Assembly: GCF_009914755.1 (NCBI RefSeq)
Contig: NC_060929.1
Length of the DNA stretch: 64,000 bases
Strand: one strand, 5' to 3'
Source of the DNA: the human T2T-CHM13v2.0 reference genome, Homo sapiens
Part shown: in pieces, positions 3,395 through 61,777 of the stretch
Position numbering within the stretch: the stretch's first letter is position 1
Layout: each line of letters begins with the position of its first letter
Notes under the pieces: model-generated
What the model was told of the DNA's origin: nothing
Database searches by the model: none
What the model saw: only the letters and a program-made list of their open reading frames with translations
Position numbers and translations under genes: made by a program

Positions 3395-3511
3395 GTTATT
3401 GCAAGTGTTTTGAGGAATTTGTCTTGGCGAGCAGATGTAAATAGTAAAAAGACGTTGCGAGAAGTTGGAAGTGTGAAAGCATTGATGGAATGTGCTTTAG
3501 AAGTTAAAAAG
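3395..3511 (+). CDS. APC: APC coding exon (c.1627-1743; exon 14)
   Basis: ttgcag|GTTATT...AAAAAG|gtacc; 117 nt; VIASVLRNLSWRADVNSKKTLREVGSVKALMECALEVKK. Confidence 0.98.
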
Positions 3512-3529
3512 GTACCTTTGAAAACATTT

Positions 3530-3690
3530 AGTACTATAATATGAATTTCATGTTTGGCTTTTTTTTGCTGCCTTCTTTTAGCCATGAGATTTCCTAATTT
3601 CTTACCTGTGTATTATTCAGTACTATAATATGAATTTCATGTTTAGCTTTTTTTGCTGCCTTCTTTTAGCCATGAGATTCCCTAATTTCT
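3530..3690 (+). repeat. 89-bp-period tandem duplication at the start of APC intron 14
   Basis: agtactataatatgaatttcatgttt...gccatgagatt.cctaatttctt at 3530 and 3619. Confidence 0.95.
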
Positions 3691-5648: not shown

Positions 5649-11528
<5,880 letters not shown>

Positions 11529-23039: not shown

Positions 23040-27604
<4,565 letters not shown>

Positions 27605-40365: not shown

Positions 40366-40757
40366 TGATCCACCCACCTCGGCCTCCCAAAGTGCTGGGA
40401 TTACAGGCATAAGCCACTGCCCCCGGCCTGATTTTTTTAAAATAGAGAGACAAGGGTCTCACTGTGTTGCCCAGGCTAGTCTCAAACTCAAGCAATCTTC
40501 CCATCTTGGGGAGATCCCAAAATGCTGAGATTACAGGCGTTTGCCACCATGCCCAGCCTGCATGTTTGAACTTTTATTTTTAAAGACAAGGTCTCACTCT
40601 GTCATCGAGGTTGAGTGCAGTGGCACGATTATGGCACACTGCAGTCTTTTTTCTTTTTTTTTTTTTTCTGAGACAGAGTTTTGCTCTTGTTGCCCAGGCT
40701 GCAGTGCAATGGCGTGATCTTGGCTCACCGCAACCTCCGCCTCCCGGGTTCAAGTGA

Positions 40758-41030
<273 letters not shown>

Positions 41031-49310: not shown

Positions 49311-49363
49311 CGCCAATTTTTTTTTTTTTTTTGAGACGGAGTTTCGCTCGTCTCCCAGGCTAG

Positions 49364-49720
<357 letters not shown>

Positions 49721-53308: not shown

Positions 53309-53358
53309 TTAGGTGCTCTTCTTTTCTTCACCCAGTAAATTCACGGTAGCTTTCTTCG
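53309..53358 (-). CDS. REEP5: REEP5 last exon, coding part
   Basis: On -: aaacaaacag|CGAAGAAAGCT...ACCTAA; (A)KKATVNLLGEEKKST*; 50 nt; phase matches exon at 61537-61705. Confidence 0.96.
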
Positions 53359-58800: not shown

Positions 58801-59520
58801 CCTGCACCCCTCTAGATCACTTCTTTTGTTGCTCCCACCTCCGGACTTCTGTATATGCAGCTCATTCTAAAGTATGATTCCCCATGGTTCCTTCTTTTAC
58901 CATTTTCTATTTTTTTTTTTTTTTAGGGGGATAGGGTTTTGCTTTGTAACCCAGGCTAGAGTGGCACAGCTCACTTGCAGCCTTGATTACCTGGGCCCAA
59001 GTGATCCTCCTGCCTCAGCCTCCTGAGTAGCTGGCACCACAGGCTTGCATCACAACGTCCGGCTAATTTTTAAATTTTTGTAGAGAGCGGGTCTCCATAG
59101 GAGACCCTGTCACAAACAAGCTGGTCTCAAACTTCTGGCCTCAAGTGATCTCCTGCCTTAGCCTCCCAAAATGTTGGGATTACAGGCTGAGTCACTGTTC
59201 CTGATTCCTTTACTACTATTGAGTCTGATTCAGTAGAGCCTTCTGGTATAGATTTCCTAAACGTCTCTATTTAAAATCATAACCATCCCTCCAGTCCTTG
59301 GCCCCCCCCCATCTTTCTACTTGCTTTATTTTTTCCCTATATTATATGGTAAATATACTATCTAATTTTCAATTTTACTGCCTATCTCTCAACTAGACTG
59401 TAAGCTTCATGAATTCAAGGAGTATGGTCTCTTCGGTATGCTGGTTCACTGCCAGTGTTATGAACATGCTTGGCACATATTAAACACCTCAATAAATAAA
59501 TATTTATTGAGTGAATTAAT
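55850..59520 (+). mobile_element. L2 LINE remnant with Alu (56290-56592, 58910-59205) and MER58A (~57157-57312) insertions
   Basis: CT-rich L2 body; L2 3' end ggcacatat...aataaatatttattgagtgaat; MER58A core atctggccctttacagaaaaag. Confidence 0.75.
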
Positions 59521-59600
59521 CAGAGCTGAGAGTGGACATTCTTTTGTACCCATAACAAAAACTGAACAGCATACTGAACCGATCAATCTGAACTGAATCA

Positions 59601-61230
59601 GGCTGGCCGTCAGGGCCTCCAAAGTACTGCTTCTGTCTGGTCAGCCTGCTGCTACAGCCTTGGCCAGCTAGGCCCTGCTGCTCATGGTGCCAGCCCAGAG
59701 AGGAGCCAGCCAGGAGATGGTGAGTGCTGTGGGGGTGGGGAGCCCCAAGGAGAAGGCACTGAGGAGGAAAAACAGGATTAGCAGCTCAAACTGCCAGAGA
59801 CAGAAAGCAAGCTCAAATGAGTGACCTGAAACAGCAAGTGGTAGATTTAGAACAGAACCAAAAACTTTTGCTAGAAAATCAGTTTTTACAAGAGAAAATG
59901 CATGGACTCGTAGTTGAGAACCATGAGTGAAGACAGCACTTGGGGATGGATGCTCTGGTTACTGAAGAGGAGGCGAAAGCCAAGATAATTCCATCTATTT
60001 GATGCTTGACATCCCTAACTAGGCAGATGAGGGTAGAAGTTAGTTGTGGTGGGGTTGGAAGTAAACATCAACTACCTTCCCAGTATGATATCCTGTTGGG
60101 CATTCTGGACAACTTAGACCCACTAGTGTTCTTCAAATGTCCTTCCCCAGGGTCTGCCAGCCTGGAGCAGCTCCCAGAGGTCTACTCAGAAGGACCCAAT
60201 TCCTAACCAGCCTCCCTTTCTCTGTCAGTGGGGACATTATCAGCCAAGCTTGAAGCTATTAATGAACTAATTAATTTTGACTACATATATGCCAAGCCCG
60301 TAGTCTGAGACAGAGAGCCAAGCTAATGCGGTAGTGAAAATCAAGGAAGCACCTCTCAGCCTTTTAGAGAATGATCACCCAGAATTCGTGGTCTCAGTGA
60401 AGGAAGACTTTGTGGAAGATGACTTCATTCCAGACCTGGGTATCTCCAATCTACTTCCATCCAGCCACTGCCCGAAGCCATCTTCCTGTCTACTGGATGT
60501 TTACAGTGACTGTGGGTATGAGGGCTCCCCTTTCCCCTTCAGCGACATGGCCTCTCCACTTGGTGCAAACCATTCTAAGGAGGAGACTGGCCAATGAACT
60601 CTTTCACCAGCTGGTTAGTGTCTAAGGAGTGATCCAATACTGTTGCTCTTTTCCTTGACTATTACACTGCCTGGAGGATAGCAGAGAAGCCTGCCTGCGC
60701 TTCATTCAAAACGTCACAGAGTGTACAGTCCTAGAGAATTCCCCTATTTACCTGTTTAAACGTCATAGATAACCCCAAGTATTGTCTTTTGGCATCCAGC
60801 AGTCCAAGGTATTCGATATGTTACAATTCAGAACTATAGGTTTTGAGGTTGTACTTTTTCTAAAGAGTGGTAGTTTGCCCTAAATATTTATTATGTGAGG
60901 GTGATTAGACAAGTGTCTTAGAGTAGACATGGAATTCATGAATGGCTCTTTATCATTTCTCCTCCCGCTTTTTGGCATCCCAGGCTTGTCTCTAGTTTTA
61001 GGTCCTTTAGTTTTCTTCTGCAAGTGGAGAGAACACATACCTGAGGGGGCTCTTTTCCCCTCATGTACAGTTCAAGTAAAGATCAAGAATTTTTTGTAAA
61101 ATTATAGAAATTTACTACGTAAATGCTTGATGGAATTTTTCCTGCTAGTATAGCTTTTGAAAGGTGCTTTCTCCATTTATTTAAAACTACCTATGTAATT
61201 AAGTATAATACAAAAAAATTAAATAAACAA
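59601..61230 (+). pseudogene. XBP1P1: Processed XBP1 pseudogene, antisense in REEP5 intron 4
   Basis: Degenerate KVLLLSGQPA, bZIP (EKALRR..QQVVDL..NQKLLLENQ), DILLGILDNLDP and ANELFxQLxSV* (stop 60623-60625); exons 1-3 joined without introns; XBP1-like 3'UTR ending in an A-rich remnant ~61212-61230; several stops and frameshifts. Confidence 0.93.
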
Positions 61231-61285
61231 TTAGAAGAGATGGACTTGCATATCAATATAGATGATTCTCTAAAATCGCTGCCTA

Positions 61286-61777
<492 letters not shown>

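What the first reader, a model, noticed from the sequence alone, without database searches (positions are those of the whole stretch)
59985..60083. XBP1 retrocopy may preserve an IRE1-independent isoform in the XBP1s frame
Seen: the pseudogene reads ...GAAGAGGAGGCGAAAGCCAAG (end of XBP1 exon 3), then a 99-nt segment ending in an acceptor-like ACCTTCCCAG, then TATGATATCCTGTTGGGC (start of exon 5). XBP1 exon 4, with its two IRE1 stem-loops and 26-nt unconventional intron, is absent. Known: exon 3 ends in phase 0, and exon 5 is read as SDILLGILDNLDP only in IRE1-spliced XBP1s. Since 99 = 33 codons, exon 5 falls in that active frame; the insert has a single stop (TGA 60000-60002). Inference: the retrotransposed mRNA skipped exon 4 and used a cryptic acceptor 99 nt upstream of exon 5. 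This would be a spliceosomal route to an XBP1s-frame product that bypasses IRE1, or an unproductive isoform if the stop is ancestral.
Basis: partly seen in the sequence, partly recalled or inferred. Interest (0 to 1): 0.8.

Follow-up and report, generated by a model that had tools for sequence, protein, structure and literature searches.

The report
XBP1 pseudogene preserves a premature-stop splice isoform
The extra 99 bases in this dead XBP1 copy are a small alternative exon from inside XBP1 intron 4 that replaced exon 4 in the copied mRNA, but it carries a stop codon shared with the parent gene, so it records an unproductive splice form and not a hidden way of making active XBP1.

Summary
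XBP1P1 reads exon 3, then a 99-nt insert (59985-60083), then exon 5, and exon 4 is absent.

In the whole T2T genome the insert matches only itself and one other place, inside XBP1 intron 4 on chr22 (92% identity, E 2e-31). So it does come from an alternative XBP1 mRNA.

The proposed mechanism is wrong in two ways.
- **Position.** The segment does not adjoin exon 5. It is an internal cassette exon, 40 nt after the exon 4 donor and 168 nt before exon 5. In the parent it has its own AG acceptor and a CAG|GTAATA donor.
- **Coding.** The TGA at cassette codon 6 is also in the parent, so the copied mRNA already had it. The modern parental cassette is 106 nt, not a multiple of 3, and has stops in all three frames.

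The 40-nt spacing is below the ~50-nt donor-to-branch-point limit (PMC7969005). This explains why using the cassette forces exon 4 to be skipped.

The best reading is a 5'-truncated, heavily disabled retrocopy of a premature-stop XBP1 isoform. That isoform would be a predicted NMD target or a 156-aa bZIP-only product. Whether the cassette is still used or is conserved could not be tested here. Interest is modest.

The parts
59601..59766 (+). XBP1 exon 1-derived part of the retrocopy. It is 5'-truncated, with homology starting about 8-10 codons after the parental ATG, so no start codon is present.
   Evidence: K2P 0.188, several frameshifting indels including a 28-nt deletion, and CAG>TAG at 59669.
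59767..59855 (+). XBP1 exon 2-derived part (basic region of the bZIP domain).
   Evidence: 88.6% identity; 6-nt deletion, 1-nt insertion and 3-nt deletion; translation of 59763-59927 gives a weak bZIP_1 match, E 2.6e-4, 21.5 bits, below the 27.6-bit cut-off.
59856..59984 (+). XBP1 exon 3-derived part, ending exactly at the parental exon 3 donor.
   Evidence: 117 of 129 identical, no gaps. TTA>TGA at 59928.
59985..60083 (+). 99-nt copy of a cassette exon that lies inside XBP1 intron 4 (parent chr22 T2T 29257294-29257189, minus strand, 106 nt there).
   Evidence: 92 of 99 identical plus 1-nt and 6-nt gaps. It is the only intronic piece of XBP1 present in the window.
60000..60002 (+). In-frame TGA at cassette codon 6, shared with the parent.
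   Evidence: parent LIPSV*, pseudogene IIPSI*.
60084..61212 (+). XBP1 exon 5-derived part (XBP1s-frame C-terminus and 3'UTR), starting at the first base of exon 5.
   Evidence: K2P 0.119; stop at about 60204-60206 in the XBP1s frame, a 14-nt deletion near 60304, and further frameshifts.
61213..61231 (+). A-rich remnant of the poly(A) tail, immediately after the parental 3' end.
   Evidence: homology with the parent ends here and an A-rich tract follows.

Best explanation
XBP1P1 is a dead, 5'-truncated processed pseudogene. It was reverse-transcribed from a minor spliceosomal isoform of XBP1 in which exon 3 was joined to a ~100-nt cassette exon inside intron 4, and that cassette was joined to exon 5.

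Exon 4 cannot be included together with the cassette. Only 40 nt separate the exon 4 donor from the cassette acceptor, and the best branch-point-like motif (CTGAC) sits 15 nt after that donor. Using the cassette acceptor therefore forces splicing from the exon 3 donor, which skips exon 4 and its IRE1 sites.

The cassette has an in-frame TGA at its 6th codon in both copy and parent, so the source mRNA had a premature stop. It is predicted to be an NMD substrate, because the stop lies 81-88 nt before the last exon junction. If translated, it would give a 156-aa product containing the bZIP domain only (151 aa plus LIPSV). It was not a route to an XBP1s-frame protein.

Shown here: the origin of the insert, the AG/GT flanks, the 40-nt spacing, the shared stop, and the absence of exon 4. 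Inferred: steric exclusion, NMD fate, and an age of tens of millions of years.
For: The insert matches only XBP1 intron 4 (E 2.2e-31, 92%). With the whole 314-nt intron 4 as query, the genome returns only the intron itself and the pseudogene, which aligns to query 39-141.

Of the seven parental pieces tested (introns 1, 2 and 3, exon 4, first 40 nt of intron 4, the cassette, last 168 nt of intron 4), only the cassette matches the pseudogene (E 1e-36). Intron 2 matches only repeat copies elsewhere in the window.

In the parent the cassette is preceded by ..aaccag| and followed by |gtaata. Its donor scores 7 of 9 against MAG|GTRAGT, compared with 6, 6, 8 and 6 for the four constitutive donors.

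The outer ends of the insert coincide with the last base of exon 3 and the first base of exon 5. Intron 4 holds 23 AG and 25 GT in 314 nt. Both inner boundaries falling at AG and GT by chance is therefore roughly 0.07 x 0.08, which is my arithmetic.

The spacing is 40 nt, with a CTGAC branch-point-like A 25 nt before the cassette. A steric 5'ss-to-branch-point threshold of ~50 nt is stated in PMC7969005 (passages read).

TGA at codon 6 is present in both sequences.

Retrocopy hallmarks: no introns, an A-rich tail, 5' truncation, and many stops and frameshifts.
Against: The 3' boundary is ambiguous. The copy's ..CCTTCCCAG aligns either to the parent's ..CCTTCCTAG with one mismatch and no gap, which would place the boundary 6 nt before the GT, or to ..CCTTCC[6 nt]CAG with a 6-nt gap, which places it exactly at the GT. 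I prefer the second only because it gives a canonical donor.

The cassette acceptor is weak: 9 of 20 pyrimidines against 15-17 of 20 for the other four acceptors.

No target-site duplication of 8 nt or more was found.

I examined no transcript evidence for this isoform in living cells, and no other species was available. One retrocopy shows that a single such mRNA existed in a germline cell. It does not show that the isoform is regular or regulated.
Confidence: 0.85

Rival explanations
1. One reading: the copied mRNA skipped exon 4 and used a cryptic acceptor 99 nt upstream of exon 5, giving a spliceosomal, IRE1-independent XBP1s-frame coding isoform.
For: The 99-nt length keeps exon 5 in the SDILLG.. 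frame in the copy, and the insert has only one stop there. The insert is intron 4-derived and has an upstream AG.
Against: The matching parental segment ends 168 nt before exon 5 and is followed by GTAATA. The true exon 5 acceptor region (..gcctcttacag) is absent from the copy. TGA at codon 6 is shared with the parent. The parental cassette is 106 nt and has stops in all three frames.
Confidence: 0.02
2. The source was an intron 4-retaining (or unspliced) transcript. Two later deletions in the pseudogene removed exon 4 plus 40 nt, and then the last 168 nt of the intron.
For: The pseudogene has many indels, including deletions of 28, 20 and 14 nt.
Against: This needs two independent deletions of 186 and about 168 nt. 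Their four ends would have to fall exactly at the exon 3 end, after an AG, at or within 6 nt of a GT, and at the first base of exon 5. Introns 1-3 were cleanly removed.
Confidence: 0.03
3. The origin is as in the best explanation, but the isoform was a one-off splicing error or low-level noise that L1 machinery happened to capture. The cassette has no biological role.
For: The acceptor is weak (9 of 20 pyrimidines), the stop is premature, and only one retrocopy was found in the genome. No paper describing such an exon turned up in seven XBP1 searches.
Against: Both splice sites and the shared TGA are still intact in the parent. The cassette is no more diverged from its copy than the exons are: 7 of 99 against 126 of 1413 exonic non-CpG sites and 18 of 138 four-fold sites. 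The difference is not significant (Fisher P 0.2-0.7).
Confidence: 0.55

Closest known systems
Processed pseudogenes as fossils of alternative splice variants (Shemesh et al. 2006, PNAS 103:1364). I saw only the reference-list entry in PMC7290577 and PMC5470649. The paper itself is not held, so its content is recalled.
   Same: An intron-less retrocopy whose exon composition differs from the main mRNA of its parent, and which therefore records an alternative isoform present in the germline.
   Different: Here the recorded isoform removes the one exon that carries the IRE1 cleavage sites and replaces it with an exon from inside the following intron. I could not check whether XBP1P1 is in that paper's lists.
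Poison (premature-stop, NMD-coupled) cassette exons
   Same: A cassette flanked by AG and GT, with an in-frame stop more than 50 nt upstream of the last exon junction. NMD sensitivity is expected from the 50-55-nt rule, which is established knowledge and recalled.
   Different: Inclusion, NMD sensitivity and cross-species conservation are all untested. Classic poison exons are added between constitutive exons, whereas this one replaces exon 4.
Sterically enforced mutually exclusive exons (alpha-tropomyosin exons 2/3, OGDH exons 4a/4b; PMC7969005, passages read)
   Same: The donor of the upstream exon lies closer to the downstream exon's branch point and acceptor than the ~50-nt threshold. Here the whole interval is 40 nt.
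   Different: The two exons are unrelated: only 6-7-nt matches between them, and lengths of 146 against 106 nt. One of the two is non-productive. The branch point has not been mapped.
IRE1-mediated unconventional splicing of XBP1 (Rfam RF04247)
   Same: Both events change the reading of exon 5 and act on or around exon 4.
   Different: The isoform recorded here is spliceosomal (AG/GT), removes the RF04247 element entirely, and does not yield an open XBP1s frame.

Membership tests
Processed pseudogene (L1-mediated retrocopy) | Colinear with the parental mRNA and lacking its introns | tested here: met
   exon 1, 2, 3 and 5 matches are contiguous in the window. Introns 1 and 3 and the flanks of intron 4 have no significant match. 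Intron 2 matches only repeat copies elsewhere in the window.
Processed pseudogene (L1-mediated retrocopy) | Poly(A) tail at the parental 3' end | tested here: met
   an A-rich tract at 61213-61231 directly after the end of homology.
Processed pseudogene (L1-mediated retrocopy) | Target-site duplications | tested here: not met
   no exact repeat of 8 nt or more, and no 12-18-mer with 1-2 mismatches, between 59500-59625 and 61190-61320. Decay with age is possible.
Processed pseudogene (L1-mediated retrocopy) | Disabled reading frame | tested here: met
   no ATG, stops at 59669, 59928 and 60000, and many frameshifting indels.
Poison / NMD cassette exon | Canonical AG acceptor and GT donor in the gene | tested here: met
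   The donor boundary depends on accepting a 6-nt indel.
Poison / NMD cassette exon | In-frame premature stop more than 50-55 nt upstream of the last junction | tested here: met
   TGA at cassette nt 16-18, which is 88 nt (parent) or 81 nt (copy) before the junction with exon 5.
Poison / NMD cassette exon | Inclusion in transcripts and stabilisation when NMD is blocked | not testable with these tools
   No RNA-seq or transcript annotation of XBP1 was available. The retrocopy is the only, indirect, evidence of inclusion.
Poison / NMD cassette exon | Conservation across species | not testable with these tools
   No other mammalian genome is held. The parent-to-copy divergence of the cassette is low but not significantly so.
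Sterically enforced mutually exclusive exons | Upstream donor less than ~50 nt from the branch point used by the downstream exon | tested here: met
   a 40-nt interval, with the CTGAC A 15 nt after the exon 4 donor. Threshold from PMC7969005. The branch point is predicted, not mapped.
Sterically enforced mutually exclusive exons | Exactly one of the two exons present in mature mRNAs | tested here: inconclusive
   The retrocopy has the cassette without exon 4. Modern transcripts were not examined.
   TGA at codon 6 in both parent and copy. The parental cassette is 106 nt and has stops in all three frames.

The most novel reading that the evidence does not exclude
The intron 4 cassette is a conserved, regulated poison exon that is sterically exclusive with exon 4, the IRE1-target exon. 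It would be a nuclear, spliceosomal switch that diverts XBP1 pre-mRNA away from both XBP1u and XBP1s, towards decay or towards a 156-aa bZIP-only protein with possible dominant-negative action. On this reading it has been in use since before the retrocopy was made, tens of millions of years ago.
Probability: 0.15. Interest if true: 0.65.

Novelty: new member of a known kind. Interest (0 to 1): 0.33.

Why it matters
XBP1 is the textbook case of cytoplasmic, IRE1-driven mRNA splicing. The retrocopy shows that the ordinary spliceosome has also produced an XBP1 mRNA lacking the IRE1-target exon, and that the splice sites used are still intact in the human gene. As it stands, this corrects an attractive but wrong idea: there is no hidden route to active XBP1s. 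It also gives exact junction coordinates that can be looked up in RNA-seq data. If the exon proved to be conserved and regulated, it would add a nuclear layer of control to the unfolded-protein response. If not, it is an ordinary fossil of unproductive splicing.

Tried and rejected
- **Adjacency to exon 5:** rejected. The match lies 168 nt upstream of exon 5.
- **Repeat or transposon origin of the insert:** rejected. Both the insert and the whole of intron 4 hit only XBP1 and XBP1P1 in the genome. The tool warns that very common words are skipped.
- **A diverged exon 4:** rejected. Exon 4 and the cassette share only 6-7-nt matches, and no RF04247 hit occurs in the copy.
- **Reinitiation at the cassette ATG (codon 15) into the XBP1s frame:** this frame is open in the copy (MRVEVSCGG..QYDILLG), but in the parent it stops after 12 codons (MRVEVSFWWGWR*). 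Not supported.
- **Target-site duplication search:** nothing found.
- **Literature:** nine searches in all. Seven were aimed at XBP1. They found no description of the structure of XBP1P1, of an intron 4 exon, or of an XBP1 poison exon. 'XBP1-003' / ENST00000405219 (PMC9448868, passages read) is described as lacking an N-terminal fragment and is not this isoform. The hits for 'XBP1 exon 4' and 'poison exon' that I opened were unrelated co-occurrences or concerned the 26-nt intron (PMC5000506, PMC13651863, PMC6323120, PMC11839196, PMC10796970; passages read).
- **Constraint test on the cassette:** underpowered. 7 of 99 differences against 18 of 138 at four-fold sites, Fisher P 0.20 without CpG sites and 0.05 with them.
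- **Unavailable:** The Shemesh 2006 paper is not held.

Full report
**1. The observation**

One search shows the end of XBP1 exon 3 (..GAGGCGAAAGCCAAG) finishing at window 59984. A 99-nt insert follows at 59985-60083, ending ..ACCTTCCCAG, and TATGATATCCTGTTGGGC starts at 60084. In phase 0 the insert reads IIPSI*CLTSLTRQMRVEVSCGGVGSKHQLPSQ, with one stop at 60000-60002. The description and the coordinates are correct.

**2. Where the insert comes from**

The window's own genome is a 3.1-Gb, 24-contig assembly, and it could be searched. The 99-nt insert matches only itself and chr22:29257195-29257293 on the minus strand (92% identity, E 2.2e-31).

The whole pseudogene, used as query, matches chr22 piece by piece in gene order:

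| Piece | Parental position (chr22, T2T) | Identity |
|---|---|---|
| Exon 1 | 29261795-29261678 | 78% |
| Exon 2 | 29260447-29260363 | 88% |
| Exon 3 | 29258496-29258354 | 90% |
| Insert | 29257296-29257194 | 91% |
| Exon 5 | 29257023-29255861 | 85% |

No other XBP1-like locus was reported.

**3. Anatomy of the parent**

These positions come from reading L009 on the gene strand.
- Exon 3 ends ..GCCAAG|gtaaat at 29258365.
- Exon 4 is 146 nt (29257480-29257335) and ends ..TTCAGAG|gtaggg.
- Intron 4 is 314 nt.
- Exon 5 begins after ..cctcttacag| at 29257020.

The segment matching the insert lies inside intron 4. It starts after ..ctatataaccag| at 29257294, which is 40 nt after the exon 4 donor. 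It ends ..CCTTCCTAGTTCCAG|gtaatata at 29257189, which is 168 nt before exon 5. So intron 4 divides as 40 + 106 + 168 nt.

With intron 4 as query, the genome returns only the intron itself and the pseudogene, and the pseudogene aligns only to query 39-141. I also ran seven parental pieces against the whole window: introns 1, 2 and 3, exon 4, the first 40 nt of intron 4, the cassette, and the last 168 nt of intron 4. Only the cassette matches the pseudogene (E 1e-36). Exon 4's best hit is 17 nt at E 1.0. Intron 2 hits only dispersed repeats elsewhere in the window.

Rfam RF04247, the non-canonical Hac1/Xbp1 intron, hits the parent inside exon 4 at 54.7 bits against a cut-off of 41. It is absent from the 8 weak matches listed at E<=10 in window 59400-61400.

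**4.

The insert is not the last 99 nt of intron 4. It is an internal cassette with its own AG acceptor and its own GT donor.
- **Donor.** CAG|GTAATA matches the MAG|GTRAGT consensus at 7 of 9 positions, compared with 6, 6, 8 and 6 for the four constitutive XBP1 donors.
- **Acceptor.** It is weak: 9 of 20 pyrimidines against 15-17 of 20 for the other four acceptors. A CTGAC branch-point-like motif has its A 25 nt upstream of the cassette.

The 3' boundary is not clean. The copy's ..CCTTCCCAG fits the parent in two ways:
- as ..CCTTCCTAG with one mismatch, which puts the boundary 6 nt short of the GT;
- as ..CCTTCC[6 nt]CAG with a 6-nt gap, which puts it exactly at the GT.

I take the second because it gives a canonical donor. 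An outgroup is needed to decide.

**5. Why exon 4 is missing**

Only 40 nt separate the exon 4 donor from the cassette acceptor, and the candidate branch point lies 15 nt after that donor. PMC7969005 (passages read) gives a steric threshold of ~50 nt between a 5' splice site and a branch point for simultaneous U1 and U2 recruitment, citing the alpha-tropomyosin case.

By that rule exon 4 cannot be spliced to the cassette. Use of the cassette acceptor requires the exon 3 donor, with a 1070-nt intron, and this skips exon 4. That is an inference from spacing, since the branch point is not mapped. The two exons are unrelated in sequence.

**6. The coding claim**

Exons 1-3 carry 453 coding nt, so exon 3 ends in phase 0. 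Exon 5 in phase 0 reads SDILLGILDNLDP... through ..FPQLISV. Three results go against the coding idea.
- The parental cassette reads LIPSV*CLTSLTRQMRVEVSFWWGWR*.. in phase 0. TGA at codon 6 is shared by parent and copy, so by parsimony it was in the copied mRNA.
- The parental cassette is 106 nt, not a multiple of three. It is one T longer in a T-run and 6 nt longer near its 3' end.
- All three frames of the parental cassette contain stops.

The stop lies 88 nt (parent) or 81 nt (copy) before the last exon junction. By the 50-55-nt rule (established knowledge, recalled) the mRNA should be an NMD substrate. If translated, it would give 151 + 5 residues holding the bZIP region and no C-terminal domain of either XBP1u or XBP1s. 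The pseudogene's exon 2-3 translation still gives a weak bZIP_1 match (E 2.6e-4, 21.5 bits, below the 27.6-bit cut-off).

**7. State and age of the copy**

Homology begins near 59601-59605, about 8-10 codons after the parental ATG, so the copy is 5'-truncated. It has stops at 59669 and 59928, many frameshifting indels in the exon 1, 2 and 5 parts, and an A-rich tail at 61213-61231. No target-site duplication was found.

| Segment | K2P distance |
|---|---|
| Exon 1 | 0.188 |
| Exon 2 | 0.124 |
| Exon 3 | 0.100 |
| Cassette | 0.075 |
| Exon 5 | 0.119 |

| Site class, non-CpG sites only | Differences |
|---|---|
| Cassette | 7 of 99 |
| Codon positions 1+2 | 45 of 575 |
| 3'UTR | 50 of 555 |
| Four-fold degenerate sites | 18 of 138 |

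The cassette is therefore no more diverged than constrained exonic sites, although it is intronic in the parent. This is not significant (Fisher P 0.20 against four-fold sites, 0.7 against all exonic sites). I treat it only as a hint.

About 8-12% divergence implies an age of tens of millions of years. This uses recalled primate substitution rates and was not checked against other genomes.

**8. Rivals**

- **Two later deletions from an intron-retaining transcript.** All four break-points would have to fall on splice-defined positions. Intron 4 has 23 AG and 25 GT in 314 nt, so the two inner ends alone have a chance of roughly 0.006, which is my arithmetic.
Contradicted by sections 3, 4 and 6.
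- **Regular regulated product or captured splicing noise.** This remains open, and I lean towards low-level unproductive splicing.

**9. Comparison with what is known**

The general phenomenon is known: retrocopies that record alternative isoforms (Shemesh et al. 2006). I saw only the reference entry, and the paper is not held.

Seven full-text searches aimed at XBP1 found no description of the exon composition of XBP1P1, of an intron 4 exon, or of an XBP1 poison exon. The published 'XBP1-003' is an N-terminal variant (PMC9448868).

I could not consult transcript annotation or RNA-seq for XBP1, and supplements were not searched. The cassette may therefore already be annotated without my knowing.

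**10. Verdict**

| Question | Verdict |
|---|---|
| Observation | Confirmed |
| Isoform origin | Supported |
| Mechanism | Corrected: a cassette exon that is sterically exclusive with exon 4, not a cryptic exon 5 acceptor |
| IRE1-independent XBP1s-frame product | Refuted for the copied mRNA |
| Interest | Modest. It would rise if the exon proves conserved and NMD-coupled. |

Noticed in passing
window 59985-59996 against parent intron 3 start (chr22 29258364-29258354): The BLAST match of exon 3 runs 11-12 nt past the exon 3 donor, because the first bases of intron 3 resemble the first bases of the cassette (window 59853-59996 against par 3505-3647). This is probably chance.
   Followed up: no
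window 59601-61231 relative to REEP5 exons 53309-53358 and 61537-61705 (minus strand): The retrocopy lies antisense inside a REEP5 intron, according to the hub's gene table. The 164-aa stop-to-stop frame at 61283-61777 on the minus strand overlaps the REEP5 exon at 61537-61705.
   Followed up: no
whole genome G000: Only one XBP1 retrocopy was detected. The pseudogene query returned itself plus five XBP1 pieces on chr22 and nothing else. The tool scores only the best candidates, so this is a lower bound.
   Followed up: partly
L009 (chr22) intron 2 of XBP1; window 8492-9075, 25881-26234, 40647-40954, 49317-49613: XBP1 intron 2 carries a dispersed repeat, with 748 BLAST hits to the window at 72-83% identity over about 300-630 nt. 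The hits coincide with stretches masked as repeats in the hub's table.
   Followed up: no
window 59849-59855: At the exon 2/exon 3 junction the copy has ..TTT---AGAACAG where the parent mRNA has ..TTTAGAAGAAGAG. This is a 3-nt deletion plus a G>C change. No alternative splice site in the parent explains it, so it looks like a later mutation.
   Followed up: partly
window 59763-59927: The degenerate exon 2-3 translation still gives weak bZIP_1 and bZIP_2 Pfam matches below their cut-offs.
   Followed up: yes
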